Shown here: piece after piece, positions 3,411 to 63,150 of the stretch
Layout: each line of letters opens with the position of its first letter
How positions within the stretch are numbered: position 1 is the stretch's first letter
DNA from: Amoebophrya sp. A120
Lineage: Eukaryota > Protista > Dinoflagellata
DNA: 64,000 bases
Assembly: GCA_905178155.1 (NCBI GenBank)
Contig: CAJINV010000011.1
Span: forward strand, 767,982 to 831,981
Direction: 5' to 3'
Made by a program: the position numbers and the translations under genes
The notes under the pieces: generated by a model
What the model was told of the DNA's origin: nothing
Databases searched by the model: none
The model's input: the letters and a program-made list of their open reading frames with translations, nothing else

Positions 3411-6400
3411 ATGTCTTTTTCGAAAGCGATCCCGAAATTCGGGGCGATCCCGAAATCGGCCGGGATCAATGCGGCGGTAAAAACGAACGAGCTTTTGAAC
3501 GCCGCCCCCTCCCAACCCGACATCACGGGCGCCTGGGGCTACGACGAGAATGCGCCGATCAACACCGAGATAAAGATCGGGTACCGCGGCGTCGCCTACA
3601 CGTTACCGAAAAAGAAAAATTATCAAGACGGTACTAGTGCGAACGATAATACCAGTCCGAAGAAGGAGGATCATGATGCGCAAGAACCACCCCAGCCGGA
3701 ACAACCCGGTCCTTCGGGGGAGCAAGCTGGCGAACAGGGCGAGGGGCAGTCCCCGGTGGCAGTAGGCGCCGACGGGGGTGCGGACGCGGAATCTCCGAAT
3801 GGTGCGAATGCCGCCGTGGTTCCCCCGGCGCAACTATCAAATGCAAATGTGTCTGGGTCTGGGAGGATGCGAGGTTTGCCATGCTTGTCTGGCATGACTG
3901 AAGAGTTTGTGATGCGTGCCCCAGAAGAGACCCTTTTGCTTCTTACGCAAAAACGTTGTTTGTCATGCGGAAAGCGTAACACTAAGCAGCGCAGATATTT
4001 CTCATGCTTGGCTGTGCATTACAGAGCACTGACTATTCCCAACCCAGCATTACAAGTTTCCAGACCCAGACATATTTGCAGTTGATAGCAACCGGCGACC
4101 GACAACAGTTTCGCGGGGCGGTTCGGCGCCGCGCGCTTCCTGCAGCCGTTGCCCAGTGCGGGAAGCATTCCGCCACCGGGTGCGTCGTCGGGCACTGCTG
4201 CGATTCCCGGCTTGGGGATCAAGCCGGCGGGACAGGGGTTGGGACCCCCGGCGGTGGAAATGGACCACTGGAATCACCTGTACAACGACGATTTCCGGCC
4301 CGAGATGAAGGGAAAGAAGGGCAAGGGCAAGAAGGGGAAAAAGGACGGCGACAAGTCCTGGGTGCCCTTTCACGAACAGGATCATCAAGACGGGTCGTGG
4401 GTCTGGGTCGGCGGCCTCCCGCACGCGGTCACGGACGAGCAGCTGTGGACGTTGTTCAACACGGTTGGGGAAGTGACGGAAGTGGATGTGAAGCGCAACC
4501 GCGCCCCGCGGGACCCCACGTGGACCAACAACCCGCCCTACGCTTTCGTCAAGTTCGCCACGAAAGAGGAGGCGGAGTGTGCGATTACGGAGTTGAGCGG
4601 CGATACCTCCCTGGGAAACGAGATCAAAGTCAACCCCTCCGTAGCCTCGGCAAACATAGTATCGTATCCGTAGACCACTATTTGTACTAAAGCGAGGATC
4701 ATGATGCAGTAGTTTGTTGTGCTGTGCAACGTGTGAGTAAAAGTTCGTGTACGACACAAGTAGTGTGGTCGTTTCAAAGAAATCGGAAGATCAGCATCAT
4801 CCTCACAGCCCTGTCGTGAAGATGTGAAAATTCACACAAGAAAAACCACGTATACGATACCACCACCCAAATTTTCGCAATTCATAGGCCGCCCACGGAA
4901 AGCTGGAGACCAAGAACGATTTCTCCACTGTGAAGGGCGCAGGGAAAGAAGGAAAGGCGCACTTCCGGAAGGGCGCGGGGGCGCTGTTTGTCTGGAACAG
5001 CGGCCGGAGCGGGTACGACGAGCAGACTGCGACGGTGAATACGAACTCTCGGGACAAGGTGAGAAGCATCGCGGACCTCGGTCGGGACATCGGCACGCGG
5101 GACAAGGTATCCTGTGCAAAAGTATCGTACTCGTAGTAATTGCGTTTATGCATGATTAATATCTTTCTCAGGGTGAATCAGCATCACAAATTTAATTTGT
5201 AATGCTGGGCTAATTTGTAATGCAATTTATACTACTTTTGCAATGCATACAAGGATGGCGGAGGCAGGTTGGATAAAGACCGGAGCCGGGACCGGCGGGA
5301 CCGCGACCGTGACCGCGACCGTGACTACGGTCGGGACCGCGACCGCGATCGCCGCGGCGGCGGTGACCGAGACCGATACCGGGACGACAAATACGGCCGC
5401 GGCCGGGACCGGTCGCGCGATCGCGACCGGGGTGCAGCTGCTCGAAAGGCCGACTCGCGGGGGAGAAAGGACGACAAGAGGAAGCCGACTGTAGTATCCA
5501 AGGCCGCGGGGGGTGACGCCTCCGACAGCGGCTCCGAAGTGATCATTGCCCGCCCGGGGGCCGCCGCCGCGGCAGCCGCCGCTACGAAGTTCGAGAAAAA
5601 CGAGTGGGGCGGTGAGAAGGAGGATAATAAGATGGATGTGGAAGACGGAAACGAAGAAAATAAACCCGCTGCGGGTGGTGCTGGTGCTCCTACAACCGAA
5701 GCTGATGGTGATGCTGCGATGAAAGATGTTGGAGATGAAGATGGCGGCGCTGCGGGTCCTCCTGGTCCTCCTCCTCCTGCCGCCGGCGCATCCGGTCCGA
5801 AGGAACAAGAAGAAACCGATAGTAACGAGAAGCAGGAGAAAAATCTCGACGAGGCGGCGATGGCCGTTGCGGCTTTGATGGCAGCCCGCGATAACAAGAA
5901 GGATCAGTCGAAAGACTATAGCGAAGAACAGCAGGTAAAGGTATCGGATAAAAAACCAGCAGCTTCTTCCGCTGAAAAAGTTGTAGACAAATTTGATGAT
6001 AAGAAAGCTCCTCGTGATCGTTCGCGGTCCCGCGATCGGAAGCAAGACATGATGAAGAAGGACGATTCCCGCGGGCGCGATGCGGGTAAGATGAAACCAG
6101 CGGCTAAGAGGGACGATTCCCGCGGGCGTAATGCAGCGAAGAATAAACCAGCGGCCAAGAAAGGCGATTCGCGTGGGCGCGGCGGTGCAAAAGTACCCGC
6201 GAGGAAGGAAGACAAAGACTCCCGCGAGCGTCGCGGTGGACCGGCTTCTAAGCCTGCTCCAAAAAAGAACGATTCCCGTGGACGCACGACCGCCCCGAAA
6301 GAACCGGCTCCTACTTCCAAAAAGAACAATTCTCGCGCACGGTACACCGCGAAAATTCCCGTCAAGAAGGACGATTCTCGCGGACGCGCGCCTGCTGCGG

Positions 6401-7155
6401 CCAAAGCGAAGAAAGATTCCCGCGGACGCGGTGCTGCACTTCCTAGCAAATCCATGGCGAACGGAAATCGTGCCGACAGCTATCGTGCGGAAAGCTACAA
6501 CAAAACTAGCACGGTGAACAATAAACGCACGGACAGTAAAGCCCGCGCAGCTCCTGCTGCTTCTACCCGGAATGCGCTGGACGTTGATAGCAAGTACAAA
6601 AAACGAGACGACGACTACAAGAAGTCTTCCCGGCGCGGTGACTATGATTACAAAGACGACTACAGCAAAAAACCAACAACTCGGGGTTCGGATCGGGATA
6701 AAGATTTTTACGATGATTACAAGAAAGACGATTACAACAAAAAATCAGCTCGCGGCACAACTACCGGCAGGGGTGATTCCAAGCCGAAGCGTCTGGCGGA
6801 TGATGACTACGACAAACCGCGGGGGGGTGGACGTGGTGACCACTACGATGACTACAAGAAGTCGGATGATAAGTACACATCGACCAAGAACAAGCGCGAT
6901 GACGACTACAAGGGACGGGGAGGTGATTCGGGATACAACGATAAGTACAACGATTCTAAGTACGATTCCAAGTACGATTCGAAGTACAACGACTCCAAGT
7001 ACACCGGTTCCAAGTACAACGATTCGAAGCATGATTCGAAATACGACGACCGGGAACGGGCCCGGGACACGACCCGCACGCGGTATCGCGACAGCTACGA
7101 GGGAAATCACCGGGCCGAGGAAGCCGACCGTTATGATACCAGGAACTGCAGATAG
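3411..7155 (+). CDS. RRM-containing RNA-binding protein with long RD/RS- and DSRGR/YDDYKK-repeat low-complexity region; exons ~3411-3834, 4093-4640, 4888-5107, 5255-7155
   Basis: RNP2 VWVGGLP and RNP1 PYAFVKF are present. Frames join after removing elements 3835-4087 and 5108-5249 (each plus one TSD) and an intron ~4641-4887 (GT...AG; donor position not certain). Confidence 0.8.
3835..4087. mobile_element. Introner-like TIR element, family A
   Basis: TIR TATCAAATGCAAATGTGTCTGGGTCTGG / CCAGACCCAGACATATTTGCAGTTGATA; TSD GCAAC; removal of 258 nt keeps frame. Confidence 0.93.
5108..5249. mobile_element. Introner-like TIR element, family B
   Basis: TATCCTGTGCAAAAGTAT...TACTTTTGCAATGCATA; TSD CAAGG; the TSD allows a canonical GT-AG register (5107-5253). 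Confidence 0.92.
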
Positions 7156-7700: not shown

Positions 7701-8188
7701 CCATTCGCTCCGTGTTGGCACGACGGGAAAAGGCAAGAACACGACGGTCAAGGTCCAGGTCGACAACCTGCCGGCGGACATGAGTGACGGCGAGTTGCGC
7801 ATGCTGGGAGAGAAGGTGATGGTGAGTCCGGAAAAGCTATGCTCTGCAAAAGTATCGTACTCGTATAGTAGTACTACATTGCGGTGATGCATGACAAATG
7901 CCTTCTCCAATCTGAATCAGCATTACAAGTTTCTTGTTGCCGAAATTTGTGATGCTATCTATGCTACAACTACTACTACGATGCTACTTTTGCAATGCAT
8001 AAAAGCTGGTCTCCACGGAAATTTTCCCCGACGACGAAAACGACGACGTAACCTGCGGGTTGCTGATGATCGCGGACGAGGCCGCTGCGGCGGAGGTGGT
8101 GCGCCGCATGAACGGAAAACGATTCCCGAAGTCGACGGACTCCGGATCCGAGCAGAAGCGGTTGCGGGTGTATTTTCCGAAAGCGTGA
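7701..8188 (+). CDS. Divergent RRM-like coding segment (separate gene or terminal exons of the 3411 gene); start unresolved
   Basis: VQVDNLPADMSDGELRMLG...TCGLLMIADEAAAAEVVRRMNGKRF...LRVYFPKA* after removing element 7838-8001 plus TSD. Confidence 0.6.
7838..8001. mobile_element. Introner-like TIR element, family B
   Basis: TATGCTCTGCAAAAGTATCG...CTTTTGCAATGCATA; TSD AAAGC. Confidence 0.9.
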
Positions 8189-11783: not shown

Positions 11784-14700
11784 ATGAGAATCCTATTGAT
11801 CCCGCTGCTCCTGGCGGCGATTTTTTGCCACCTCGGCGCACAGGAACTCTTCGGAGTGCTGGGCTCCGCATCATTTTCCACCCCCTCGAGAAGTACAGAA
11901 GCCGCAGGTAGTGCCGAACAGCAAAGCACAGCACCAACGCCTGACCCCGCCGAGGACACGACGACCAAAAGCGTCTCTGCTCGTCAGCTCTACAGCATGG
12001 ACGCCCCAACTACACAGCAGGCCCACCTCTCCATGGCGACGGACATACCCAGTAGCTCGGGGGAGCTGACAGGGTTCAAGTGCGCTCCTTCGGCGTGTGA
12101 GGAGTTTGTTCCCGGGCAGCGGGACGACGACTGCTGCGCCTTTCCCTGGATGGCGGGGTGCGCGCCCGGACACCTGTACACGGAAGGCCGGCTTGGGTGC
12201 GGCCACGGCTACGATAATGGTGCGTACAGCACCTGCTGCATTCCGAAAGCGCACTACGACCAGAACCAGGGCATGTTTTGCAACAGATTGAAGGAGTGTG
12301 TGTTCAAGGAAAAAGCCGCGGCGGGCGGTGAAACTGTGGATCCGAGTCAGACGTGGAAAGAGGACGGGGATGGTGGGTCCGAGGAACCGGGAGATAATGA
12401 CGTGTCTGCTGAGGAAACTCCCTTCCGGTGGAACGAGAATGACGAGTACGAGCGACAGGGGTACAATCCGCCAGACGACATCGCGGCCAATACAGAGAAG
12501 TGCATCTTGGCTGCCTGCCAGGAGTACGAGCCGGGGCGTTTGGACACGGACTGCTGTGCGCACCCGGAAGTGGCGTTTTGTGGAAACGCACTGACGTACG
12601 CGCCCGGCGCGGAGGGGTGCGGGTGGGACCTGAGGCAGGGGCAGCGGAGCACGTGTTGCTACGACCCAAACATTTGGAGCGAGGGCGACATCACAGCGAC
12701 GCAAGAAGCCCCAGCCGCGAACAACGTGGGCGAAAGACTTCCTAACCACCATTCCCCGCCGGACGACATTACTGCGGACCCGAACTGCCACATCGAAGCG
12801 TGCCAAGAGTACGAAATTGGGACGCCGGATTCGGATTGTTGCGCCTTCGAGGGATTTTGTGCGTCAGGATTCCGGTACGAACCCCGGGCCGCCGGTTGTG
12901 GGTGGGGTCTGGAGGATATGAGAGTTGTGCACAACTTCTCCTCCCACGCATTTGCATGGCATGAGCAGCAATACACAAACACCAACACTACATCACTTGG
13001 AGCCTGTGCATGACAAGTTCACGGGCCGAGTGTAGTATTGTTTCGGGTTGTTCCGAAATTTGTCATGCAAACAGTGCCACAAGGCACCAAGTGATCAATT
13101 GTGGACTTTGCATCACAAATGAGGGGGAGGGGGGGTTGTGCACTCTCATCGTGGAGGGGGCGTTCTCGACGTGCTGCATCAGGGATGAACAAGGTACAGG
13201 CAGCGCTAATACCGGTGCTAGCACTTCTCAGCAGTCCTCTCGTGGCAGTTCTTCTTCCTCGATGACTGCGTCCGTGAGGAGTGGTGATTTCACCGCGAGC
13301 TCCGACAGCGCGGTGCCCATTGCGAGGACCGCTCCGATGCTTTCCAACGCCGAGCTCATGGCGCGGTACAATGCCTGGGCGGCGGCGAACGGTGGCAACA
13401 TCGCGGAGACCGAGACACAGCCGCCAGGCCCGGAGGATCACTTTTACAAAAGGTTATCCGCAGCACCCGGCTCCGCGACGTGGCTTATCAAGGCGGACCG
13501 GGAGGGAGAAAGAGCGGAGACCGAAGTGGTTTGTGAGTTACCAGCGTGCGAGGAATTCGTGAAGGGGAACAGTGATAGCGATTGTTGCGCGATCCCGCGC
13601 ATGGCAAGCTGCGCAATCGGGCATCGGTATTTACCATTGATCCGGAACTGCGGGGGAAAGAACGACATGGGCAGTCGGGTGACGTGTTGTGTGAAAGATG
13701 ATTCCGGCTCTTTCAACACGGAAAAAGACACGGGTAGAAAATGGTTTGATCGTGTGTTCGGGGCCGGAACTGCAGAGCCCGATTTCTGCATCCCGGGGTT
13801 CCCCAGGCCCGCGAATCCGTACACCTGTGCCGCGCAGCCGGCGAGCACAGGTGCTTCTAGTAACAGTGATAACAGCTACGCCTTCTTCGACGCGGAGATA
13901 ATTAAGGCGAATACGACTTCCGAGGAACGGCTGCCAAAAGACGTGACTGGCACTGCCTTGATGACCGACCAAGCGTACAAAAACGGAAAAGAAGCCGGTC
14001 TGCGCAACAGCGTCGCGCTCGCCGCGGATTTGGATGTTTCGATGGTGCAAGTGAAGGCGACAGGGTTTCACGTAGTTGAGAGGGAAATAACGGGAAGCAG
14101 AAGAAAGCTCAGCACTACGACGCCTGCATCTGCGGTGCAGACGGTGCAAACCTCTTTTATAGTGAAGTCCATGGACGCAACCAATGCCCGCGTCGCCGCT
14201 AGTCTGACGGACCGCGCGGCCACAGCGCGGATTCAGGCCATGACCGAGGAAGCCATGCGGACGAACCAGCGAAGCGCGGGATCGGATTCCGTGGTGCGTG
14301 GCGCTTGGCAGATGGAGAGTGTCCGTCCGGTGGATGTGCAGGGGAGCTGCGTTACCCGGGCAAACAAGGACTATTGCGAAGTCTACAGCCGGACCTCGTT
14401 TTCTGATGAACGCGGAAGCCGTTCGCAGGACGAGGACGGGAGTAGTGTGTTGCTGCTCGTTTGTCTGCTGGTCGCAGGTGGGTGCTTATTGGCTGGGTGC
14501 GTTTTTTGCTACGGTGGATATGGTAGTTGTACAAGAGCCTTCCCGTGGTCGCGTTTCGGTTTATTTGGAAACAAGAACCAGGCAAGTAAAGTTGTAAACC
14601 GTTACGCCACGACGATTTCGCCTGGCGATCTTCAGCATGCGGTGAGCAACATCAAGCCTGGAGTAAGCAGACAGCAACAGAAAGAAACCCATGAAAACTT

Positions 14701-15166: not shown

Positions 15167-16704
15167 AGAGCAATGCGGCGAGGCTACAATAGCAGAGACA
15201 CGTTGATTTATGAATCGGACAAAATTTTTGAAAATTAAGAAAAGCAAGATTGTGCATGGAATAGCACATTAAAACCTTTGACAGGGTACACATTTGGTGG
15301 ATTTCTTCATAGGCGGTGTAATCAAAAAATCTCGAAAACGAGAAAGGGAAGAGTCTATCGATTCGCCTAGAAGACATCAGCGGTCTTTCTTCAGTTCAAA
15401 AGAAATCTTGTAGTTACATCAAAAAAGGTGAAAGCATTTGTTTCAGACCTAGGTAGCGTTATTGCTATTCGTAATGCTAGTTTCGTTTCTATGTGTAACT
15501 CCGAAAAAGAGCTGTCGCTGTAAAACGACGCTATTTTTCCGACACGCACTTTGGAAAGTGTATCGGAATAAAGTCTACGTACTGGAGCACACAGACACAG
15601 ATTTCTATACCTGAGAGAAGATGAACCACGTTAAGTTTAATGTGGAAAAAGTTTGGAAATGTAAAAGTACTTAAATGGTGCGCGTGCGCGACCGTACAAT
15701 CGGAAAAGCCTCGACCACCACCTGACGTGAGGCGAAAAGGAATTCCCTGGACCCAATAGTGGTCGTGTTTCTCGTCTCTTGTGCAGGCACAGAAGATCAC
15801 GATGTCGATAATCGTCAAGAATCTCACCACTGCCAGATTTCAGGCAGTCAATCTTCGTACTTTTTTGTCTTTCGTCAGTAACCTTAACCAATAAATAAGT
15901 AAGTGAGTTTTTCGTGTGCTGAAGCTTTTTGTTTGTAATGCCGTAAAGTACGTCGAGTACGAGATCTAAGTACATCAGAACTGCCTCATTGATAGGTTCA
16001 ACAGATGAAACACTCACAAATTTTGCATCTCGTGCTCGTGGAACTTCGTGAAGAAAATTGGAGTGTGTCATTTGATGTTTCATTCGTTTGTTCCAGGTCC
16101 GGTCGTGTTTTCTTTTTGTGACGCAATTTTTTTTTCATCCTACGTTTTCCTTTCGGTTTTGTGACGAGGGCAATTACAAAGGTGTGGCTCCGATCGGACA
16201 CACAGGTGGGCCAAATTGCAGTGGTTTTGAGGCCTCATCTTGTACATGATCATTTTCATTATCACGCTAAATATCGTAGTGTGCTCCTTGTTTGAAGATT
16301 CGTGATGAGTTAGTAGACACTGCCACTCATCTACTTAAGTGGCAAACAACAATACCGCATCCGCAGCATAGAAAAATAGAACGCAAATTGTTTTTTTTGC
16401 TGCCATGGCTCCTCTGCTCTCTCGTCGTCGCAACGTGAAGACCTGTTGTCTTGTTTCGCGTCTGGCAATTTCGCAAGCGGAACGCGAAAGGGCCCGCTGT
16501 TCCAGCGTGCTGCGAGCGGAGCCAAACGGCGTGCAGCGTAGTGCGGAGCGCTCGACGCACGACGGCGCGACGCATGGACAAGGAATCAGGAGGAGCTACA
16601 ACGGGCCCTTCCTGAGCAGGAATGCGACTACGCATTTCGAACCCTGACTCGGACTTGTACGAGTGCAGCCACGAGCCCGCACTAACAGGACCAACTTGGT
16701 CAAC

Positions 16705-19700
16705 ATGTCGTCGCGAAAACGTAGGAAGAAGCTCCTGGCGCACTGGGCCAGCGTCGCGGCGAGACTGACAAGTTCTTTGTTTTTCCTTCACATCAGTAGG
16801 CCGTTACTGCACATCATGATGATGCTCTACTTTTTTCTGCATGTCCTTCTGAGTAGTCTGTATGACCACCTCCCGCCAGCACCAGCACTCGGAGTTGTAC
16901 ACGCCCTCACCACCGCGGTGGCCGAGGAGACCATGACCTTGGAAACCTACATCCGGAGGAAGGTGGAGTGCGAGTCTTGCCATTTAAGGCACTACGCCCC
17001 CCGGATTTTCAAGTGGAACTTCAAGTACAACAAGTTTTTCGGGCACCACGGCCAGTACAACTACGAGCTGCAGTCCTTGAGTGACACGCTGCAAAAAAAG
17101 CCCTTCGAGTTACCGTTTTCCGAAGTGGCGTTCGAGAAGCTGGTGAAAATTATCGACGACCCGGGATGGTGGGAGTGGGAGCGGATTAAAAACGTGAAAA
17201 AGTCCGTCGCCGACTGGCACCTGTTATCCTGATTAAAAACGTCCCCACACAACCAGAATCTTCAAGATGGGAAATCTGCTAGACAAATCACACAGCAGCT
17301 TTGGTTGTTTGGCACGACAAGTTTCTTGTCCTCGTAGTGTAATCCTGTTTAGCTAGCTCAGAAGCGTCACAGATCTAGCATTTCATGCTGATTTTAGCAT
17401 CACAAATCCCAAAACACGAATAGAGAAGGCTTCTCATAGGGCTCCGCATGAGAAACTTTTTTGGCATGCAATTGCATGACAACTCTGGGGAAGTAGTGGG
17501 GACGTTTTTACTCAGAATACCTGTTCCGAGACACCTACGACGGCATTCACTGGAGCAGGATCGCGTACGAGCTGGAGGTGGACAAAAACTGCGTGCGCGT
17601 GTGGCAGCCCTGGAGCGAGTGCTCGGTGACCTGCGGGCCCGGGGGCCGGGTGCACCGGTGGTGGCGGTACGCCGACCGGGAAGACCAGCCACCGACCGCG
17701 AGAAACTGCGGCCCCGAGCGGGACGCGGACACCCTACGCGGGGAACAGGAGGTGCATTTTGACGAGATCGCGCCGTGCACGAACTTCATGCGGCCGATGC
17801 CCCGGTGCCCGCCAAGGCCGGAGATGCCGGACGAGGGGCCCGACGACCTGGTGCATCCGCACTACAACGCGTTGAACCCCTACTGCGACGGCCAGCAGTT
17901 TGCCTGGCTGCGCTACAACTTCGTGAGCTCTACTGAAAACCCCGGCGCACTGGTCCTCGCGGCGGAGAGGGGTCAGCACAGGCAAAACCAAGACGGACAT
18001 CACGCAGCGCCGTACTTCACGTTCCCCCGGGGGGACTTGTGCGCGATCGACTTGTGGCAAAACGAGGTGTACTTTTACAATAACGTTGACATTCCCTCCT
18101 TGAATCGGAAGGCGTTTACGGACGCGCGCAACTTCAACCCCTCGGAGTATCAATTCTCGGTAAACCAAATTGTCGACCAGGCGGGACAGACGATCCGGGA
18201 GGACGGTTGGCCGATCCACTACCGGGAGACGCAGTACTCCTACTTTCGGTGCAAGCGGGCCCTAGAGTACGTGAACAAATTGGAACAGTACCTTTTCAAA
18301 GACACCGACCACAAAGACGAGGTGAAGCTGGTGCCCGCGCTGCGCCACAAGGCCCCGGTCACCGCCGCGGAGATGCAAACGGCGCTGACAAAAAAGGTCC
18401 AACAAGGCGAAATCGGGGACGGCGACGGGTCCGGCGTGGAGAGCCTGCCGCTGTTCCGGAACTTCCAGGTGCACGGTTATCTCAAGGGGAGGGAGATGAT
18501 GCAGTGGAAGTGCGAGAAGATCTGCGACTACTTACCGGAGTGTGTGTTGTACAGCTACCTGGGTCATCGGCCGGACGATGATCCAGAGCAGAATGATGAT
18601 ACAGGGGCCGACGAGAGGACGACCTCTCCGGACGACACCTCTGGCGAGGCCGGGGCGGCGTCGGAAGTCGAGAGCCAGGACCACTGGTGCTTCCCGAAAT
18701 CGAAGCGCAACGGCGGGAAGCAGGTGGGGCACAAGGAGGTGCGGAACTACCCGACCGGGCGGGGCGGGGAGGTGACAACCGACGTGCCGGTGGACAGTTT
18801 CGGGTCCCTGGGGTTCGGGGTCTGCATGCGCCGCGTGTGCGAGGATGAGCAGGAGCACGACATTGCCGTGGACAAGTACGGGCTGGGCTCTGAGGTCGTT
18901 TTGCGGTCCAAGTGCCAGAAGCCGATCCACTGCGAGCTGACCGAGTGGTACTACCCGAAAACCTGCACGAAAGAGAAGAACGTGGACTACTCGAAGCACT
19001 GGAAACTGAAGCGGCTGAAAAACGACGAGGTGCTGGAGCACAGCCGGGGGCAGGCCACGACGTCGCGGGGCCACCGGCGCAAAGTGCAGCGGTTGGAGGA
19101 GTGTCGCGAGATCTGCCGCCGTTCGGAACTGTGCGATGCGTACGCGTGGTGGAGGTTGGAGGCCGCGGCCGAGGAAGACCAGGGAAGGTGCAAGTTGCTG
19201 GAGCGCCGGGACGCGGACTCGCCGGGCGACTTTTTGGAAATGTGGAATGCGGACGTGATCAGCGGGGTGTGCAGTCAGCCGACCTGCTCGGCCGCTTGCC
19301 GCCGCGACAAGGACACCGCGCACGGCTTCAAGTACCAGGTCCGCGACATTTTGGTGCACCCGCAGTTTGGCGGCACGGAGTGCAGTGAGACGCTGCTGCA
19401 CCGGGACCGGTGCGAGGCCGACCCGGAGAACGACATCTGCCCGCCGCGGGCGCCCCAGGACGGCTGGGGGCTGCCCTGGGACCCGGACGGCACGGAGCCC
19501 TACGACAAGGCGTACTGCCAGGTGGACAGCGAAGTGACCATTCAGGGGAGAAAAAACCGGGACCTGTGCCTGCACGAGTCGCTCGACCGGACCGACGGCG
19601 AACTGGACTGCTGCGTCGACATGTACAAAATTGCGACGATGGGCTACCACCAGCCGGAACAGTGGTGGAAGGGGAAGGAGCAGCTGCCCTACAAGGAGCA

Positions 19701-22700
19701 GTGCGCGGACGGCTACTTCAACCTTTTCGACTGGACGCAGAAGCTGACGCGGCGCAACTGCGTCCACGATGGGAGCAACGACGCGGAGTTCACCACCGCA
19801 AATGCGCAGGCCGCGGTGTGTTGCGTCCCCCTAGGGCACACGTTCACCGACGAGTGCGAACTGTCCGACTGGCGCATGCCGCGCAAGGAGTGCGGTTACG
19901 AGCAGGACTGGGATTACTTCGGGGGAGACTTGCACGAGAACACCGCCTATTACACCATCACGGGGGCCGAGTGCAAGACGCTGTGCGAGTTAAAACCAGA
20001 CTGCACCGCCTACACCTGGGTCCACGATATTGACGACACCTGCCGGCTGAAACAGTTGCGGGGTGTGTCGGGTACTATCGATCCCGTGCAGGCAGTGAAA
20101 GACCCTTTTGATCTGAACTGGGAGACCGGACAGCGGGTCCACAGGGACGTCGGCGGGCAGTGCGCGGAGCAGTGGCCGTTTGCGTACCGGGACTACCAGG
20201 TGGTCACAAAACCGCCCTGCTCCAAGTCCTGCGGCGGGGGTCTCAGGTACTTCACGCGCGAGATCCTCCAGCACCCGCAATCCCTGGTCGACGAGCTGAG
20301 CACCGATTTGTCGCCCTACCGCACTTGTGGTTCTCTCCTAAAAATCGAGATCTGCAACATTCAGGAGTGTCCGACGCCGACCACGCCGACGACCACGCCC
20401 TATGAAATGCAGAAGTATCGTACTAGTATGAATTGCATTTGTACAAATTTGCTCAGCATTTACAAATTAAATTTGTAATGCGGATTTGCCTTAGGAACCT
20501 TGTAAAAATGCATAAATGCAATTAGTACGAGTGCGATACTTTTGCACAGGATACGCTCCGCCCGCCGATCACGACGCCGGCACCCGTGCCGTCGTCCACC
20601 ACCCCGGCGCCTACACCGGAGCCGACCCCTGTGGGGCCCGCGCCGGTGCTGCCGGAGCCCAGCGACGCGATGCGGAAGCTGGCGGCGCGGCCACCATATG
20701 AATTGCAAAAGCATCATAGTCGTACTAGTATAAATTGCATTTCAAATTTTCTCAGCATGAAAAATTGAATTTGTCATGCTGTTTCACCTTGGAAAGAAAA
20801 TTTGTCATGCATGCCTGCAATTTTAGTACGAGTACGATGCTTTTGCACAGGATACTCCGATGGGCTGGGCGAGCTGGAGCGCGTACGGGGAAGAGGTGGA
20901 CGCGGGGAAAATCACCCAGGTGTATCCAAGAAAAAAAGTGTGTAAGTAAGGTTAAGTCTGTGATGCAGGAAATTCTAAACTGTTTACACTTGTCTTTGTC
21001 ATGCTAGAGGTGCGTCATAGGCCACTTTCATAGGTGTTTCCACGTACTAGCTGCGCATGTCGGGTTACTTTCTATATGTAATGCAAAACGAATTTGTGAT
21101 GCTGATCTTCCGTACAAAGTTACACTTACACAGTTTTTTTCCTGGATAAGGTGCTGGAAGAGTTCAAGGAGGGGTCGGATTGGCACGACGCCGGCTACAA
21201 CCTGATCGAGATTAGCGACGGGTACCAGCAGTGCACCCCGAGTGAAAATCTCGCCCGCATGCACCCGGGCCGGTTTCACCAGGAAGCTACCGAATCGCGC
21301 ACCTTCGTTGGCACCACCACCACCAGCAGTACTTCTAGTACCACCACGGTGAGTAGCACGGTGACCACGGTGACCAGCCCGGCGGGGGTCGCCGTGTTCC
21401 CTCAGCCGGATTTGGACCAAATGTTCGACAGCACCGACGAGGGACACCTGAAGTGGCAGGATTTTACGAAGGGCAACGATCCCGGCGTGAACGAGTTTTC
21501 CCTGGACCGGTGGCAGGCGTACTGGTACGAGCGGAACCCACCGAACGACTACTACGGCCCCACGTTTTACCTGATGCAGCGCCGGTATAAATTGAACGCC
21601 CAGAGGACGATCCACCTAAACGCCGACTGGGACAACACGATGAACACATGGCTGAAGGGCACGGGGCAGAAGTTGGATGCTTCTGTATCCTGAGTAAAAA
21701 CGTCCCCACCACAGAGTTGTCATGCAAGTGCACAATGACAGGAACGTTTGTCATGCGTAGCTCCATGAGAGACATTTTCCAATCGTGATTTGGAATTTGT
21801 AATGTTGTAAACTGGATTAGAAAATGGCTTTCTCATGCGGCTTCGGCTTCCCTTGCCAGCGAGTACTACACAGCAGAGGAAAACTTGTCATGCACAGCTC
21901 CCAAAAAAAGGAGATTTGTGTTGCTAGATTCCCAACTTGACTATGGGGTGGGGACGTTTTTACTTTGGATAGTCTAAGAAACCGAAGCTGCTGACCGACG
22001 AGGACGACGACTGGGACGAGGTCATGACCCGGTACTATGCATTGCAAATATGCCTGGGTCTGGAAGGATGCAAACTTGTGATGCGCATTTTAAACGACAC
22101 AAATTACTATCTATTATATTCATGCGAAAAAAGAGGTCTACAGAGGGTAGACGAGAGGTGGCCGAGAGGTCAAAAAGAGGTCAAAAGAGGTCAAAAAGAG
22201 GTCGACAGAGGTGGAGAGGTGGCGCGGGAGGTCATTCGGGAGGGTGGCCGAGAGGTGGCGCGGGTATAGCGAGCCGAGCCGTTCACCCTAAAGCCGCGCC
22301 TATAGGGACCAGAGGGGGCCGAGAGGGTGCCAAGAGGGTAGGCGAGAGGGGGACAGAGGTGCCGAGAGGTTGCGCGAATAAGGGCGAACCTCTCGCGCAC
22401 CCTCCTGGCCACCTCTCGGCCACCTCTGTAGACCTCTACCGGCGAGTATAGCCGGACTATTAGCAAAACCTCTCGGGAGAGGTAAAAAAGAGGGTCTGCG
22501 AGAGGGTACAAACAGCCCGAATCCGCCCGGTATTCGGCCGATCTTCTGGGGATTTTTGCATCGCTTGGGCCCGCACCCTCTCGCGCCACCCTCTCGCGCA
22601 CCCTCTCGCGCCACCCTCTCGCGCCACCCTCTCGCGCACCCTCTCGCGCCACCCTCTCGCGATACCCTCTTGCGCCAGCAGTTCCGTCGGCCGGGAAGCC

Positions 22701-35371: not shown

Positions 35372-35952
35372 GGCGCCAGTGCTGCTACAACAAAAATGCC
35401 GCGCTTTGAATATCCGATATCTGCACCTCCAGCAATGACGTTGTACACGTAATGAGTAAAAAAAATTGGAATTGGATACTAAAGATAATGCTGAGACTTA
35501 CACTTATTCTACATCTACTGTACAAGAACAAATGAAATAAATGTACCACTAAGCAACTACATCATGATGATGAATACTTCGCTTCTTTCAGAATGAGACC
35601 TTACGCATAGATCGGTGCACACGATCTTGAAATACTGTATTTATACGAAGAAATCGTTCGAAGGGTCGTGTCTAACAGAGGACATGATTGGCGCAATTCA
35701 ATGAAAGTGACAAAACCTCCGAAAGCCGAAACGGATATTTGCTATATAGTTTTGACGCTTATAATTTCGGCTTATGTCGAAGCAAACACTCCCTCGGTGG
35801 ATTGAAAGTCGAACAATTTGTATCGGAACAACGGGACGACGACGACAAGAAAATAAACGTCAGCGTCTAGCGGAGCGGAAATTTCATTCTAGTTCCTCCT
35901 GCACCAGAGTGCCAAGGAAGCTTGTGCTATACTTGTTGTTCTGTTCATCGAC

Positions 35953-45815: not shown

Positions 45816-47669
45816 ATGGCAGTGCTGGCGAAAAATGAGGAAGAGCAGGAGTGGAAGCCGGCCTACATGCGGGACGACAACTATGTCTCCGAGTTAGACA
45901 TGCGCCCGGTCCCTTCTCTTCGCGACACCCTGACCCAGATTGGGGCCGAGTTTCGGGACCAGCTTTACAACTCTGTATGAGAGTTTGTTGTGAAGAACTT
46001 CTCGTCCCGCCCTTCATTCAAGTAAAAAGTGTATTTTAAGGAGCTGCAACGGAAGCGTCGTGCTACAAATGACGCTTTCGCATGACAAATCACGAGACGG
46101 ATTGCACTAAGCCAGTAGTGCTTGCTTTTGGGATTTGTCCAGCAAAACGTGTCTACTTCCAAGGAGTGCCACCTCCAAGCAAGAAGTGAAAATGACTTTG
46201 GTGTTCTTGTTTTACTTAACACATGAAAAAAGTAGGGAGGGCGAGTTGGTCTACTTGCTTCACTGTGTCATACATAAATTCCACCAATAGAGCTACTGCT
46301 GCAACAAGATCATCTTCTTGGCTCTTCGACTCCTGCGTGAATATCGAAACCGCAACGGCAGGCGAGGGAGCATCTTCAACGTCAGGCGGAGCTGGAGTAA
46401 TAAATGGACGAGAAATAAATAACGAGCAACCCTTTGAGCCGCTTTTCGACTCGGAGCAGTTGTTTCTGGGCGCGTTCGAGTTCCGGCGGGCTTCCTTTGC
46501 GGATTTGATGCTCCTGGTAAAAATGCAGTGGGTGGAAGGCTATCAAGTGTAAAAGTGTCTGGGTCTGGAAGATTCTGAGACTTGTCATGCACGTTTTGCA
46601 TGGGCCATGATCATGATGTCTGTGATGCATGCCCTAGCATCACAGACTTGTTGAGGGCTCTGCGATGCCTATTCCGCATGGCAAATGCCCTCTCCCTGTA
46701 GCCAAAATTGCATTCCCTTTGCTGCTTATGCAATACAGATTTTTTTGGAATCCAAATGCAGCATCACAAGTTCGGATTCTTCCAGACCCAGACATTTTTA
46801 CATTTGATAAAGGCCGGGACCCGGCGTTCTTCGGTTCGGCTCCTGCATCCTCCTCGAAGATAACTATTCGCGTTCAGGACCGAAAGCTCCTCCACATGCA
46901 GCACAATGCGATCGCGGCGACCGAGACACTCACCTTTGAAACCGTGACACGGAATTTCTTCGGAAGTGAAAATGACTTGTCCACCTGTAGTCGTGTGGAC
47001 AACAGCAGGAGGAATTATGCCGGTGTACAAGAAGAACATGCGCGGCGCACAGGGGGCAGCACGACGAGCGCTAGTGGTAGTGGTAGTGCCGCTGTTGATC
47101 AAGTCGTACTAAAGAATCATCCTGCCGCCACCACAGAAGGAACGACAGAGGAATTAACAGGTGCAGTGGTTTCGTCAAACCGCGATGTCCTGCTGTGGGA
47201 GGAAACCTGGGAGGTGGACTGGAAGGGCGAAAAGTGTCGGATCGTTCTGGAAAATTTGAATTTCCTCTACGCTTTCCGCGTGCGCATCGAGTTGGAGCTC
47301 TTGGGAAGAACTACGCAGAGCACGATGACGCAGCTTCGGGTGAACACCGTGCAGTATTTGATCACAAAAGACATCGGCGCCCAGATTTTTTCAAAGGAGC
47401 TATTGGAAGAGAAATTGGCGGAGGAAGCGAAGAACTGGGCGAAATTTTTCCACGACCAGGTCGAGATGAAGGGTAAGAACAGTGGCGGCCAGCACATGAT
47501 GAGCAGTGTTGGGGACAGCAACAAGGCCAAGGACCCGCGCGGCGGCGGCCCTGGTGTCGTAGCTGCGAATTATGGAGCAGGAGGTAGTAGTAGTGCAACA
47601 GGTGGTAAGAAGAAGCAGCAAAAAATTGATACAGCCATGCTGATGTCCATGGCTGATGATTTGGGATAG
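45816..47669 (+). CDS. Hypothetical protein; exons ~45816-45975, ~46278-46540, 46815-47669
   Basis: GC3-rich coding-like frames join after removing two TIR elements. No family recognised. Confidence 0.65.
45976..46272. mobile_element. Degenerate introner-like element, family C
   Basis: TATGAGAGTTTGTTGTGAAG...CTTCACTGTGTCATA; TSD eroded; removing the element plus 5 nt keeps frame. Confidence 0.6.
46541..46809. mobile_element. Introner-like TIR element, family A
   Basis: TATCAAGTGTAAAAGTGTCTGGGTCTGG...CCAGACCCAGACATTTTTACATTTGATA; TSD AAGGC. Confidence 0.92.
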
Positions 47670-56783: not shown

Positions 56784-58521
56784 ATGTCTTCGGCTTCGAG
56801 CAAGAATTTCTTACCAATCGCGCCTACCGGCGCTCCGCCTCGAAAAGATGCTCCACCACCGCATAGTACTAGCGCCCTACGCGGGCGCGGAGGACCAACA
56901 CCCTCGAACAATGAAAGGCCGCACAAGATGAATCCGAGGAAAAAAAACTTCGTGCCCTTAGTTTCACCTCCGGCACGTCCTCCGGAAAGCGCACCGTTGC
57001 TGCTGCACGATGAGGACGGGAGAAGAGGAGACGAAAAACAAGTGACAGGGAACAAAGGGCATTATGATCCGAAGCAAGAACTGAGGGCCGCTACTCCCTG
57101 CTCCGGTGGAGGTAGTAGATCTGATCTCTTACATCAAGCTGAGAAGCCCCTGCCCTCCGAGTCAACGCTTGTGCCTGAAAACTTCGAGTGGGGCAGTTGT
57201 GGTAGTTCTGCTGGTGGTGCTGGTGGTGGTGGTTCGGAAACCTTTTCGCAGCAAAATTCTCCTACGTCGCAGCTTTCATCCCCAAGAGGCACTGCTGCAC
57301 AAGCTGCGAATTCTAATTCATCTTCCGACGTGACCACCCTGCACGTCGGAAAGAACCGCCGGGACCACGATCGCGCCCCGCGGCTTTCTTTCCTGTTCCC
57401 CAAATCCCCGGGTACTTACCAGCTGCAGGACCTGAATTTGCACGCCCTGGGGCTGCGGGTGAAACCGCTGGCGGAAGTGAAGCTGCTACAGTCGGTCGTG
57501 TTGGAGATGGTGCTGCCCGGGGACTTCGCGCAACCGGTTCTCCTGGCGCAGCAACAACAGTTTGGATTTGGAAATTATAGCAGCGCCGTCGGAGCTGGTG
57601 CTGGCGGTGGATCCAGCGCGACGAGCATGGGCGCTGCAGCTGCGGGGGGAACGAGTACAGCTTCCGCACAAGGAGGTACCACCGCAGTCATGTTGCCGCA
57701 GTCGCTGCAAAAATTGGCATCACAGGGTACTGCCACAACACAGCATTCGTCTTTACTACCGGCTGCCTCTTCTACCGCAAAAACCTTCTGGTCCAGCAGC
57801 TCGAATTATCAGAAAAAATACCGCACGGTCGACGTTCACTACATTGGCTGGTACGTGTCATCTATGTATTGCAAAAGTATCTTCGTATTTCTAGTGGTCA
57901 TTGCATTACAAACTTGCTCAGCATGACGATCGGAATTTCTCATGCTGTTTTACCTTAAGAGGATGATTTCGATTTGTCATACACAATTGCAACTAGTACG
58001 ACCACACGAGTGCGATACTTTTGCAATGCATATCATCTGGAACGACGACGACAACCACAGGAGCTGGAAGTACCTTTACAAATCCGACGTTGATCTACAA
58101 GGCGTTCCAATTCGATACCACGTACAACCGCCACAAACCGCTCCGGATGGACAAGTTGGGAAAAAACGCGTATTTTCCCGGCTTGGAGGAAGCCGTAGTG
58201 CAGTTGTGCGTCGGCTCCAAAGCACTCGCGTACATCCCCCCGGGCAAGGCGTTCGGCAGTCGCGGCTTCAAGGCTCTCATCCCGCCGAGTGCGCACCTGA
58301 TCCTGTGGTTGTGCGTCGAGAAACCCGGAGGAGCGACGGGGAGTTTGTCGAGCGGTGGGGGAGGGGGGGGAGGAGGAACGGGAAGCCGTGGAGGTCCTGC
58401 TCCGGGCAATAGTTTTGCGGGCAAAAACAAAGCTGCTGGGACAACAGGTCGAGGAGCGAAAAACAAAAATCAAGATGGTTTGCCACCGCCGCGGATGATG
58501 AAAAATCATTCGCCTGTATGA
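56784..58521 (+). CDS. FKBP-type peptidyl-prolyl isomerase domain protein with low-complexity insertions; exons 56784-57862, 58038-58521
   Basis: VLEMVLPGD...TVDVHYIGW...FDTTYNRHKPL..LGKNAYFPGLEEAVVQLCVGSKALAYIPPGKAFGSRG..LIPPSAHL matches the FKBP fold consensus. Confidence 0.82.
57863..58032. mobile_element. Introner-like TIR element, family B
   Basis: TATGTATTGCAAAAGTATC...GATACTTTTGCAATGCATA; TSD TCATC. Confidence 0.92.
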
Positions 58522-60944: not shown

Positions 60945-61929
60945 ATTCCGGAAGACGTCTTGTCGCAGCTCTGTCGTAACAGTAGATCAAGCATTATTTC
61001 CAAGATAACAAAGTTTATTTTTGGATGCGGTTCATTCATCGTGCTGGAGAGCAAAAGAAAAGCGCATGGAGCTACAGCATTCTCACTAACCACCCGGAAC
61101 GAAACGAAAAAATAGCACGAGTCGCTAAGTGGAAGTGCTACTTGGTTACAGAGGTAAAGACGTAAAATTAAGAAAGCTTCAAGTGCTAAAAATCCGCTGC
61201 CTTCAAGCTGCGTGTACACAGCGGTGTAAAATTTGTTCTTCTGGTGAGCAGTTACAATCATTATTCAAAAAAGTCAAAAGCGCGAAGATTTGGCGCCATT
61301 CGGTGGTCACTGGGATGTAGTAGCACTTTACAAATAAAGTGGGCTACTTTGTGCAACTTGAACTTCTAGAAAGGGATGGGGAAATGAAACAACAGCAAAA
61401 CGGAATCCATTGAGTGACCCTGATTTTTTTTCTCTGCGCCCATCGGTCGTGAGTCGGTCCTTGCTTGAAGTCCTACCAAATGTTAATGTAAATGTTGTCC
61501 ACCCGTAGGTATGATAAATAATAATTCTGGAAGAAGACCTCATCTTCAAGCACGTTGGGCCACATACAAAAGTTTGTTGAAAGAGTTAGAGTGCTTTATT
61601 GGGTCCACCTGTTTATCACATCGGTCTACTTACAGAATCCATGTGCTGTCTGTCACTGTCTGTCACCCCGTCGTGCTGTGCTTCATTGTTCTTTTTTTCG
61701 AGTTTGACCCGCACTTCTAGGTACTGGCCTATGCCGTGTGAAGAAACCATACTATTTTGACTCAAGACCAAAATCGTGACCGTGAGAGTTTACAGGGGAA
61801 AAAAAAACAGCACATAAAGAAAACAATTCATTATACATTCTTTTTCAGTACAATAATCACGACATCTGGTGTTTGCATAGAAAGCACAGAGCTTGATAGA
61901 TTGAAACACGAAGAAGCTCCACTGCAAGT

Positions 61930-63150
61930 ATGGCTATGGTAAACAACCTTCCTACTTTCCACAGTGGTGGGTCGATGCCGTCCTCCACCCGGCGCGGGCC
62001 CGCGGGCGTGAAGCGGGGTCTGCAGACTGTCGAGGAATTTCAGCCTACCTCAGACCCAAACCTGCTAAAGGATGAGTACGGAAACACGCACGAACGCGAA
62101 GATGTCCCCGTGTCGCCCACGGAGAGTGAGGCCGTGCAGTCGGAGCACAGCAGCGACAGTCCGAGTGAGGACAAATCTGGCAGCACCTCCGGGGAGGGCG
62201 AGGGCGCGAACTATCAAAGTGAAAAAAGCCCCCACCCCATATCGGAAACGGAAGATGCGCGAATTTGTGATGCTGCATTTGAGTACACAAATCGACTTGT
62301 ATTGCTAGAAGGCCAAGAGACGAAGCTGCGGCCTAAATTGCGGGCAGTCTGTCATGCTGTTTCCCACTTCCAGTTGCCTCCTGTCATCCTGGAGCTGCAA
62401 GGCTTGCCCACGCTAGGCAGCATTACAGTCCGCATCTTTTGCCTTCTAGCATCACAAAGCTGATTTGTGGCCACAAATCTGCATCGCAGATTTCCGCTTT
62501 GATATGGGGAGGGGGCATTTTCATTGTAATACGAACTTTGCGAAAAAAGTCTACACCGCGATCCCCATCCCCTTTGACTTCTTCGGCTATCCACAGGAAA
62601 TTTCCCGTACACGTCCAAATGTGGCTTCCGCATTACAAACTTTTCCTTCGAACCTCTTCAGCATGACAAGTTGCTTCTTCTAAGTTGGTGAAATTTGTGA
62701 TGCATTTTGTACGCGTGCGGGAATTATTTGTATTGCATATCAGCATCGGAAAAAGGACGGCCAGCGCGGCGGACACGTATCTCCTTAATCCCATCGTCGG
62801 GGCCGCGGTAACGGGGGCGAGGCAAACGCTGTATCAGAGTCAGTTTCTTTTTGTCGTTACGTTTTGATTTATTTTCACACAGTCAGATCCAGACGTGATG
62901 TCAAAAGATGTTTTCTGGTACGAAGTACAACGGAATTATTCGCATTGGAATGCAAAAGTAGAAGAAAAAAAACGCAGGATAGATGATGATGATGATGATG
63001 ATGAAACCAGGTTGCCGCAGCTGGAAAAGTGGGCTGGTGTCGACACGGAGAAGGCACAAGCGAAGGAAGCCAGAAACCGGAAGCGCATGCGTGCCAAGGG
63101 CGGAAACAGCAAAAAGCGCACCAAATCGGCCGAGAGACAGATGAACGAGA
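61930..63150 (+). CDS. Hypothetical protein, multi-exon, probably continuing downstream (3' structure unresolved)
   Basis: Frames join across elements 62212 and 62588 (GAN|FAKKVY...FFG|IGKR), then probable conventional introns at ~62839-62886 and from ~63151. Confidence 0.55.
62212..62531. mobile_element. Introner-like TIR element, singleton family G
   Basis: TATCAAAGTGAAAAAAGCCCCCACCCCATATC...GATATGGGGAGGGGGCATTTTCATTGTAATA; TSD CGAAC. Confidence 0.85.
62588..62739. mobile_element. Introner-like TIR element, singleton family H
   Basis: TATCCACAGGAAATTTCCCGTACACGT...ACGCGTGCGGGAATTATTTGTATTGCATA; TSD TCGGC/TCAGC. Confidence 0.8.

What the first reader, a model, noticed from the sequence alone, without database searches (positions are those of the whole stretch)
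3835..62739. About 48 TIR/5-bp-TSD elements act as precisely removed non-canonical introns
Seen: 48 elements (A x16, B x9, C x5, D x6, E x7, F x3, 2 singletons) with TAT...ATA ends and 5-bp direct repeats (32 perfect by my count). Deleting the element plus one repeat copy restores the frame and conserved motifs, for example THFALWC, PPMGW and the FKBP domain. For TSDs such as CCTGT, CGCAC, CCTAC and CGCCA, no register ends in AG, so a standard spliceosomal 3' site is absent. Known: inverted-repeat/direct-repeat introners with non-canonical splice sites have been reported in Amoebophrya, and to my knowledge the removal machinery is unresolved. Inference: removal is guided by structure (TIR stem plus flanking repeat) rather than by GT-AG.
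Basis: partly seen in the sequence, partly recalled or inferred. Interest (0 to 1): 0.92.

Follow-up and report, generated by a model that had tools for sequence, protein, structure and literature searches.

The report
Transposon introns cut at fixed offsets
About 50 small hairpin-ended transposons sit inside this marine parasite's genes and are absent from transcript-based records, joined one base before and four bases after their ends even where the flanking repeat has decayed, which likely reflects a relaxed spliceosome and gives a testable rule for a published intron class whose removal is unexplained.

Summary
Observation confirmed. There are 51 TAT…ATA elements; 32 of the first 49 have a perfect 5-bp repeat. 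Removing element+5 nt opens one 3,881-aa frame across 25 junctions. Window exons are 100% identical to deposited Amoebophrya sp. A120 proteins, so these are the published A120 introner elements (Farhat 2021), where the border is called unknown or variable.

New here is the border: all 13 informative junctions fit one register, intron = 1 nt + TAT…ATA + 4 nt. Two junctions allow only that register. The intron therefore starts N-U-A-U. In 320 oriented elements U+2, A+3 and A-7 carry 3 substitutions and their pairing partners 21 (p=3e-4). There is no AG or orientation preference.

Best reading (0.55): a relaxed spliceosome reading U+2/A+3 and likely branching at A-7, with the hairpin bridging the ends. 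Main rival (0.33): a Euglena-like nuclease/ligase. No lariat or raw junction reads were seen. The scan noted similar single introns in two other genomes, not this register.

The parts
16648..35368 (+). Host gene: 3,881-aa stop-to-stop frame after removing 25 elements (TSP1 and PAN domains in one exon). All element rows below give TAT…ATA coordinates; the intron is start-1 to end+4.
   Evidence: P0001 and P0004 cover parts
3835..4087 (+). Element, family 0, repeat 5/5
   Evidence: frame only
5108..5249 (+). Element, family 1, repeat 5/5; the only one that is GT-AG at the 1+4 register
7838..8001 (+). Element, family 1, repeat 5/5
12917..13150 (+). Element, family 3, repeat 4/5, ends ATC
17225..17519 (+). 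Element, family 2, repeat 5/5
20401..20553 (+). Element, family 1, repeat 4/5
20697..20854 (+). Element, family 1, repeat 3/5; joining gives PPMGW
20923..21148 (+). Element, family 4, repeat 5/5
21686..21971 (+). Element, family 2, repeat 3/5; register at most 4
   Evidence: P0004
22036..23208 (+). Longest element (1,173 bp), family 0, with a repeat-rich interior; joined in P0004
23800..23976 (+). Element, family 0, repeat 5/5; joined in P0001
24036..24272 (+). Element, family 3, repeat 5/5; joined in P0001
24513..24720 (+). Element, singleton, repeat 4/5; register at most 4
24802..25036 (+). Element, family 3, repeat 5/5; THFALWC junction
26092..26349 (+). Element, singleton, repeat 4/5; register at most 4 (weak: only the upstream contig piece was shown)
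   Evidence: record 9
26416..26677 (+). Element, family 0, repeat 5/5
27082..27336 (+). Element, family 0, repeat 5/5
27380..27652 (+). Element, family 5, repeat 5/5; a contig piece starts at its 3' flank
   Evidence: record 15
29103..29344 (+). Element, family 4, starts TAC, repeat 5/5; skipped exactly in a contig
   Evidence: record 11
29813..30071 (+). Element, singleton, repeat 5/5; skipped (by record arithmetic)
   Evidence: records 11, 16
30324..30613 (+). Element, family 0, repeat 5/5; skipped (by record arithmetic)
   Evidence: records 11, 16
30958..31244 (+). Element, family 2, repeat 5/5; skipped exactly in a contig
   Evidence: record 16
31565..31818 (+). Element, family 0, perfect 30-nt TIR; contig pieces stop at each flank in separate records
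32884..33005 (+). Element, family 1, repeat 5/5; skipped (by record arithmetic)
   Evidence: records 13, 18
33072..33337 (+). Element, family 0, repeat 4/5; register at most 4
   Evidence: records 13, 18
33712..33927 (+). Element, family 4, repeat 4/5; register at least 4
   Evidence: records 13, 18 end at 33710
34077..34307 (+). Element, family 3, repeat 5/5
34575..34865 (+). Element, family 2, repeat 5/5
34951..35249 (+). Element, family 2, repeat 5/5
38098..38280 (+). Element, family 1, repeat 5/5; absent from P0002 together with the next element
38285..38285 (+). Predicted 1-nt exon between two tandem elements under the 1+4 rule (a single joint removal fits the protein equally)
   Evidence: inference
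38287..38539 (+). Element, family 0, repeat 5/5, inserted in the right repeat of the previous element
38585..38878 (+). Element, singleton, repeat 4/5; register at least 2
38896..39150 (+). Element, family 0, repeat 5/5; joined in P0002
39198..39459 (+). Element, family 5, repeat 5/5; joined in P0002
39763..39978 (+). Decayed element found from P0002, repeat 4/5
40389..40626 (+). Element, family 4, repeat 4/5; register at least 2
40730..41005 (+). Element, family 0, repeat 4/5; register at least 1
41059..41188 (+). Element, family 1, repeat 5/5; joined in P0002
41623..41876 (+). Element, singleton, repeat 5/5; joined in P0002
41930..42197 (+). Element, family 0, repeat 3/5; register at least 3
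42336..42634 (+). Element, family 2, repeat 5/5; joined in P0002
42708..42976 (+). Element, family 0, repeat 0/5; only one placement fits P0002, 42707-42980 = 1+4
43048..43191 (+). Element, family 1, repeat 5/5; joined in P0002
43237..43453 (+). Element, family 0, repeat 4/5; joined in P0002
44050..44314 (+). Decayed element found blind from P0002, repeat 0/5; only placement 44049-44318 = 1+4
45011..45223 (+). Element, singleton, repeat 3/5; no reading-frame evidence
45976..46272 (+). Candidate decayed element predicted by the 1+4 rule; it restores the frame, but GT-AG placements do too (not counted in the 51)
46541..46809 (+). Element, family 0, repeat 5/5
57863..58032 (+). Element, family 1, repeat 5/5, upstream of the FKBP_C exon
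62212..62531 (+). Element, singleton in the window, repeat 5/5; joined in P0003
62588..62739 (+). Element, singleton, repeat 4/5; register at least 3
63485..63725 (+).
40022..40247 (+). Canonical GT-AG intron, the first of six mapped (also 41221-41496, 43509-43639, 43771-43997, 62831-63010, 63152-63329); all six start GTA and end CAG

Best explanation
These are non-coding, hairpin-ended transposon copies that transcript-based records lack from one base before the TAT end to four bases after the ATA end, and they are likely removed by a relaxed standard spliceosome that reads U+2 and A+3 and would branch at the A seven bases from the 3' end. Shown: the elements, the 5-bp repeats, frame restoration, one register at 13 of 13 informative junctions, joining without a repeat, insertion in both orientations, and excess conservation of +2, +3 and -7. 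Inferred: a transposase with a 5-bp staggered cut makes the repeat. Because 1+4 equals 5, splicing cancels the duplication at any target and in either orientation, since both ends carry the same signal. The terminal stem likely brings the ends together in place of U1/AG recognition and is then unwound. The 3' cut would be set by distance from the stem or branch, not by AG. My odds: fixed 1+4 register about 0.9; repeat not needed about 0.9; spliceosome as catalyst about 0.55; branch at A-7 about 0.35.
For: Register, contigs: 33072 and 26092 allow at most 4 and 33712 at least 4. I wrote the hypothesis down from these before fetching proteins. Register, proteins: ten further junctions in deposited proteins all include 4. 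42708 and 44050 allow only 4, 63485 allows 3-4, and all three have 0/5 repeats. By my arithmetic the chance of this under freely varying registers is about 6e-4. The models were built from BLAT/EST2GENOME-aligned transcripts (PMC7789003 section 25). Donor likeness: 6 of 6 mapped canonical introns start GTA, and the elements start N-T-A. Substitutions: +2/+3/-7 carry 3, partners -5/-6/+4 carry 21, in 320 oriented elements (p=2.8e-4). Without wobble-preserving changes the count is 1 vs 16; outside the seed family 1 vs 12. The A-run and T-run controls are symmetric. All 18 predominant non-canonical classes in Farhat Table S4 have T at +2, in both strains, and U1-70K, U1A and U1C are listed for both. 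In the yeast P complex U+2 pairs with U6 A51 while G+1 pairs with G-1 (10.1101/212811), so losing G+1 and AG together while keeping U+2 is coherent. Precedents: Giardia [G|C]TATGT donors with a fused branch/acceptor (PMC10711314) and spliceosomal removal in Fritillaria (via review PMC11282704).
Against: No lariat, branch or raw junction read was seen. The contigs are RNA only by guess and come from one sample, and the proteins are gene models. No trace of canonical second-step signals remains: AG ends 28 vs 28.5 expected, G+1/G-1 30 vs 32.2, +1/-1 association p=0.054. A-7 lacks a U2-type context (T at -9 in 154 of 320) and lies one base nearer the 3' end than the presumed Giardia branch A (my count from the motif). 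The predicted stem buries U+2, A+3 and A-7 (mean pairing 0.66-0.75). A 1-nt exon is implied at 38285. U1 snRNA was not detected in A120. A protein nuclease could also read these bases. In Table S4, 8 of 9 A120 classes have A at -2, which suggests mixed aligner registers and weakens that support. The 269 outside elements were oriented by a codon model and were not shown to be spliced.
Confidence: 0.55

Rival explanations
1. A spliceosome-independent endonuclease plus ligase recognises the end of the TIR stem and a few bases in it, cuts 1 nt outside on the 5' strand and 4 nt outside on the 3' strand (3-nt 3' overhang), and ligates the exons, as suspected for Euglena nonconventional introns.
For: Fixed geometry relative to the stem. 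No AG or +1/-1 signal. Both orientations are about equally common (family 0 46:52, family 1 21:15, family 2 14:13). Stable folds, z<-2 in 45 of 50. A 1-nt exon is implied. Euglena has a fixed-offset paired code, 5'-N3CDG…CH'GN5-6|R-3', and distinct factors are proposed there (PMC12501133); excised introns are reported as non-lariat circles (via PMC11282704).
Against: The most conserved bases are those a spliceosome would contact (U+2, A+3, an A near the 3' end), not symmetric pairs. 44050 is joined at 1+4 although its ends are predicted unpaired. T+2 is shared with strain A25, whose repeats begin TTA. No candidate enzyme was found in the window.
Confidence: 0.33
2. The flanking direct repeat guides the join, either in the cell or as a reverse-transcriptase template-switch artefact across the hairpin.
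For: 32 of 49 elements have perfect repeats and strong hairpins, the setting in which template switching is known (recalled, no call).
Against: Three junctions with 0/5 repeats are joined at the same offsets. Imperfect repeats give one register, not a spread. The 3,881-aa frame needs all 25 removals.
Confidence: 0.04
3. The elements are cut out of the DNA in part of the life cycle, like ciliate internal eliminated sequences, so the element-free records are not spliced RNA.
For: Runs X3 and X4 are RNA only by guess. TIR+repeat elements are transposase substrates.
Against: DNA-like run X1 has contigs running from exon into element at flat depth 41-46, whereas X3/X4 exon depth rises from about 0-4 to 18-23 along the gene, as transcripts do. 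Gene-strand asymmetry of the terminal bases points to an RNA-level reader.
Confidence: 0.03
4. The elements self-splice as small ribozymes.
For: They are strongly structured.
Against: Unrelated interiors of 122-1,173 nt work in both orientations. No Rfam family reaches its gathering score in the window.
Confidence: 0.03

Closest known systems
Introner elements / non-canonical introns of Amoebophrya sp. A120 (Farhat et al. 2021, PMC7789003)
   Same: Same strain by 100% protein identity. IR starting TAT, seven variable bases, then AAA; direct repeats of 3-5 nt; about 240 nt long; many families.
   Different: The text calls splice sites variable relative to the hairpin, the border unknown, and reports no clear terminal signature. 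Here one register (1+4), independence from the repeat, and a U+2/A+3/A-7 signature are found. The figures were not viewable.
Euglena nonconventional introns (PMC12501133; review PMC11282704)
   Same: Paired ends at a fixed offset from the splice sites, free terminal bases, ambiguous borders from direct repeats, likely MITE origin, unknown machinery.
   Different: Euglena: 3 free nt at the 5' end, 5-6 at the 3' end, CDG/CHG pair, purine at the exon start. Here: 1 and 4 nt, TAT/ATA, no exon-start rule seen.
Fritillaria borealis non-GT/AG introns (review PMC11282704; PMC13326754 passages)
   Same: MITE-derived TIR/TSD introns removed precisely; U2-type spliceosome conserved.
   Different: Preferred ends AG-AC/AG-AT and a preferred target; here there is no target preference and both terminal dinucleotides are free except T+2.
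Giardia CT-AG intron with fused branch/acceptor (PMC10711314)
   Same: +1 relaxed, TAT at +2 to +4, 3' site at a short fixed distance from an upstream A.
   Different: Giardia keeps AG and a U2-type branch motif; not transposon-derived, no TIR.
TIR introners of algae and dinoflagellates (Gozashti 2022 PMC9860276; 2025 PMC12130899)
   Same: Non-autonomous TIR/TSD elements creating introns; A120 is named there as rich in diverse introners.
   Different: The figure examples read carry or co-opt splice sites from the element or target; these elements need neither G+1 nor AG.

Membership tests
A120 introner elements (Farhat 2021) | Occurs in Amoebophrya sp. A120 | tested here: met
   P0001 and P0002, named A120 by NCBI, are 100% identical to window exons
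A120 introner elements (Farhat 2021) | Terminal IR starting TAT, 7 variable nt, then at least 3 A | tested here: met
   TAT start in 48 of 49; A at TIR positions 11-13 in about 39-45 of 49
A120 introner elements (Farhat 2021) | 3-5 nt direct repeat at the borders | tested here: met
   5 nt; 47 of 49 at 3/5 or better; 340 of 379 at 4/5 or better in outside loci
A120 introner elements (Farhat 2021) | Removed from transcripts | tested here: met
   25 elements absent from deposited proteins; 6 more bracketed in RNA-guess contigs; no raw junction reads
A120 introner elements (Farhat 2021) | Repeated genome-wide | tested here: met
   30,633 contigs of run X1 laid on a 19-kb stretch; 47 window elements hit outside loci
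Canonical U2 introns | GT…AG ends | tested here: not met
   1 of 51 at the 1+4 register
Canonical U2 introns | U+2 and A+3 of the donor | tested here: met
   0 and 1 substitutions in 320; canonical donors GTA in 6 of 6
Canonical U2 introns | Branch A in a U2-complementary context | tested here: inconclusive
   A-7 conserved in 318 of 320, but T at -9 in only 154 of 320
Canonical U2 introns | Lariat intermediate | not testable with these tools
   needs raw or enriched RNA of this strain
Euglena nonconventional introns | N3CDG…CH'GN5-6|R code | tested here: not met
   ends are N-TAT…ATA-N4; first exon base is a purine in 189 of 320
Euglena nonconventional introns | Excised as non-lariat circles | not testable with these tools
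   no excised-RNA data
MITE / non-autonomous TIR DNA transposon | TIR, fixed-length TSD, short, non-coding, many copies | tested here: met
   median 261 bp in 379 outside elements
MITE / non-autonomous TIR DNA transposon | Cognate autonomous element with transposase | tested here: inconclusive
   none seen; longest paired copies 1,173 bp (window) and 972 bp (149 loci, pairing limited to 1,500 bp); no whole genome was available

The most novel reading that the evidence does not exclude
A120 has a second, spliceosome-independent mRNA splicing machine (a stem-end endonuclease plus ligase, possibly recruited from the transposition apparatus). Its 1+4 cut exactly cancels the transposase's 5-bp duplication, so any insertion, at any sequence and in either orientation, is a perfect intron from the moment it lands.
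Probability: 0.3. Interest if true: 0.92.

Novelty: already known. Interest (0 to 1): 0.62.

Why it matters
The elements are in print, but their borders and machinery are not: about 65% of A120 introns are non-canonical, with borders called unknown. A one-line code (N|UAU…AUA-NNNN, no repeat needed) would let those genes be re-annotated. It explains why the transposons could invade coding sequence without cost, and it names the bases to test: branch at A-7, U+2, A+3. Either outcome matters. One is a spliceosome that needs neither G+1 nor AG; the other is a second splicing machine converging on the Euglena solution.

Tried and rejected
No whole genome was held, so there was no genome-wide search for a transposase or snRNAs. 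Sequencing runs: no holder was on record as RNA. Raw-read run X9 laid 88 reads, all partial; 83 of them sat on one element end and there was essentially no exon depth, so it says nothing here. The joint table was swamped by other element copies in X1, so I used the piece table, which showed 24 rows with 20,936 more hidden. Only one stretch (16300-35500) has laid runs; registers elsewhere rest on gene models. A first ATG at 16405 was wrong (80 aa). Pfam gave no hit on the exons with PPMGW or THFALWC, so a glycosidase label for them is recalled, not tested. Homologue searches returned only A120's own proteins, plus two weak repeat-type hits (P0005, P0006), so the register could not be checked by cross-species conservation. 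Rfam: 0 hits. No +1/-1 covariation and no AG enrichment. Repeat mismatches do not cluster by position (window 7,7,4,4,7; loci 11,11,11,19,7). Rows dropped before the asymmetry count: of 379 outside elements 85 could not be oriented, 20 had repeats under 4/5, and 5 were off-register by one base (all TAT…ATA on inspection), leaving 269. The tRNA bulge-helix-bulge geometry (recalled) does not fit, because the 4-nt tail is identical, not complementary, to the exon end. Exon DNA of the outside loci did not overlap the window's, so whether that assembly is the same strain is open.

Full report
Observation. The elements are real. TIR scans and similarity searches gave 49 TAT…ATA elements, and mapping deposited proteins added two decayed ones. 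The flanking repeat is 5 bp: identity is 0.865 at length 5 and 0.21-0.31 at other lengths, and 32 of 49 are perfect. The strict scan finds 36 in the window and 0-1 in each of 20 shuffles. Removing each element plus 5 nt opens a 3,881-aa frame across 25 junctions; every other removal length gives at most 2,486 aa.

Identity. Searches with single exons returned proteins 100% identical to the window, two of them named Amoebophrya sp. A120 by NCBI. Farhat et al. 2021 (PMC7789003) describe A120 introner elements with inverted repeats that start TAT, seven variable bases and at least three A, 3-5 nt direct repeats, and 29,850 copies. These are the same elements. [quoted passage not shown]

Removal. 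On 16300-35500, DNA-like run X1 has contigs that run from exon into element at flat depth. Contigs of X3 and X4 (RNA by guess, one sample) skip exactly element+5: directly at 29103 and 30958, and by record arithmetic at 29813, 30324, 32884 and 33072. Their exon depth rises towards the 3' end. Deposited proteins P0001-P0004 lack 25 further elements. Those models were built from aligned transcripts. So 31 of 51 elements have two-sided support. No raw junction read was seen.

The register. Where the two repeat copies differ, the product shows which copy each base came from. Register k means that k bases of the left copy stay in the exon. Contigs gave k<=4 (33072; weakly 26092) and k>=4 (33712), and I noted k=4 as a hypothesis at that point. 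Ten protein junctions then all allowed k=4: 21686 and 24513 (<=4), 40730 (>=1), 38585 and 40389 (>=2), 41930 and 62588 (>=3), 63485 (3-4), and 42708 and 44050 (only 4). Multiplying the compatible fractions by hand gives about 6e-4 for freely varying registers. 44050 was not in my list and emerged from the protein as T+TAT…ATA+CCCG. 42708, 44050 and 63485 have 0/5 repeat identity. The intron is therefore 1 nt + element + 4 nt, and the repeat is a transposition footprint, not a guide. This also argues against a template-switch artefact.

What is read. At this register the intron starts N-U-A-U and ends A-U-A-N-N-N-N. The six canonical introns mapped start GTA. A pattern scan of metagenome contigs gave 153 stretches; the 80 listed all carry one assembly prefix (JACKZZ01), and 149 loci (559 kb) were in my files. 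They hold 379 distinct elements with the same 5-bp repeat. A codon model oriented 294, and 269 remained after the drops listed under Tried and rejected. With the 51 window elements, substitutions were +2: 0, +3: 1, -7: 2, against their pairing partners -5: 10, -6: 4, +4: 7. That is 3 vs 21, p=2.8e-4; 1 vs 16 without wobble-keeping changes; 1 vs 12 outside the seed family. The A-run and T-run of the TIR vary symmetrically. Elements lie in both orientations about equally, so the signals are in the symmetric ends. Folds are stable (z<-2 in 45 of 50), and the terminal pairs form with mean probability 0.66-0.75. There is no AG enrichment, no G+1/G-1 excess and no U2-type context round A-7. Farhat's Table S4 has T at +2 in all 18 predominant non-canonical classes of both strains, but A at -2 in 8 of 9 A120 classes, which suggests that aligner registers are mixed there.

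Mechanism. Transposition (inferred): a transposase with a 5-bp staggered cut acts on shared ends. A motif GCAT-N-ACA-R occurs 107 times in 12.9 kb of elements and 14 times in 51 kb outside; it is absent from several elements that are still removed, among them 39763, 44050 and 63485, so it more likely serves mobility than splicing. No autonomous copy was seen. Gozashti 2025 reports an A120 TIR family with LTR-integrase-like ORFs, a lead for the enzyme. Splicing (inferred): since 1+4=5, removal cancels the duplication at any target. I favour a relaxed U2-type spliceosome (0.55). The bases kept are the ones that contact U6 (U+2 with A51), and the ones lost together, G+1 and AG, pair with each other or with the branch in the yeast P complex. 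U1 proteins are present. Giardia tolerates C+1 in CTATGT with a fused acceptor, and Fritillaria removes MITE introns with its spliceosome. The serious rival is a nuclease/ligase (0.33): the fixed stagger, the absence of any second-step signal, the buried signals, an implied 1-nt exon at 38285 and the Euglena precedent all fit it. My data show which bases are read, not which machine reads them.

Novelty. The element class is known, in this very strain. I found no paper giving the fixed register, the independence from the repeat or the U+2/A+3/A-7 signature in five searches of an open-access library. Figures 3 and S19-S25 of Farhat and the supplements of Gozashti 2025 were not seen and could show part of it. 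Subscription papers (Henriet 2019, Guminska 2021, Roy 2023) were not read and are known only through a review or reference lists. What I read: PMC7789003 abstract, passages, sections 10, 11, 12, 16 and 25, and supplement parts 2-3 of 5 (text only); PMC11282704 passages and section 6; passages only of PMC12130899, PMC9860276, PMC12005148, PMC10711314, PMC12501133, PMC13326754 and 10.1101/212811. Earlier scan notes describe similar single hairpin-bounded introns in two other genomes; none matched this element by sequence.

Verdict. The class is known, with a newly resolved border rule that makes its open mechanism directly testable. Interest 0.62.

Noticed in passing
window:49793-53692 (-), with a long direct repeat at about 54273 and 56049: LTR-retrotransposon pol remnant: a 1,300-aa frame with RNase H and integrase Pfam hits, next to a near-identical direct repeat of at least 300 nt. 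No TAT…ATA element was found in it.
   Followed up: partly
window:38098-38544: One element inserted into the right repeat of another, leaving a predicted 1-nt exon under the 1+4 rule.
   Followed up: partly
all families; outside hits at 36564, 46080, 48210-48657, 49274: Shared subterminal motif GCAT-N-ACA-R, 107 hits in elements and 14 outside, including a cluster upstream of the LTR remnant; a possible transposase-binding site common to all families.
   Followed up: partly
window:35900-37080: Intergenic, palindrome-rich repeat with several nested inverted repeats and a duplicated flank of about 60 nt; one piece matches an outside locus (L063). It may be a different mobile element.
   Followed up: no
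window:22036-23208: A 1,173-bp family-0 copy with 12-13-nt tandem and inverted repeats inside; a relative covers 568 nt at 90% in L018. It is still absent from the deposited protein.
   Followed up: partly
window:9147-10970: Cid1/TUTase-type nucleotidyltransferase gene without elements (Pfam).
   Followed up: no
window:16648-35368: Very long, probably secreted protein with TSP1 and PAN domains and possible glycosidase-like motifs (recalled); the public records found cover it only in fragments (P0001, P0004).
   Followed up: partly
run X9 on window:31770-31819: 83 raw RNA reads carry a family-0 element end with a different flank, so a related element is present in RNA in a data set that does not cover this gene.
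   Followed up: no
PMC7789003 Table S4: All nine predominant non-canonical classes in strain A25 start TT and its repeats start TTA, which predicts the same T+2/A+3 rule there.
   Followed up: no
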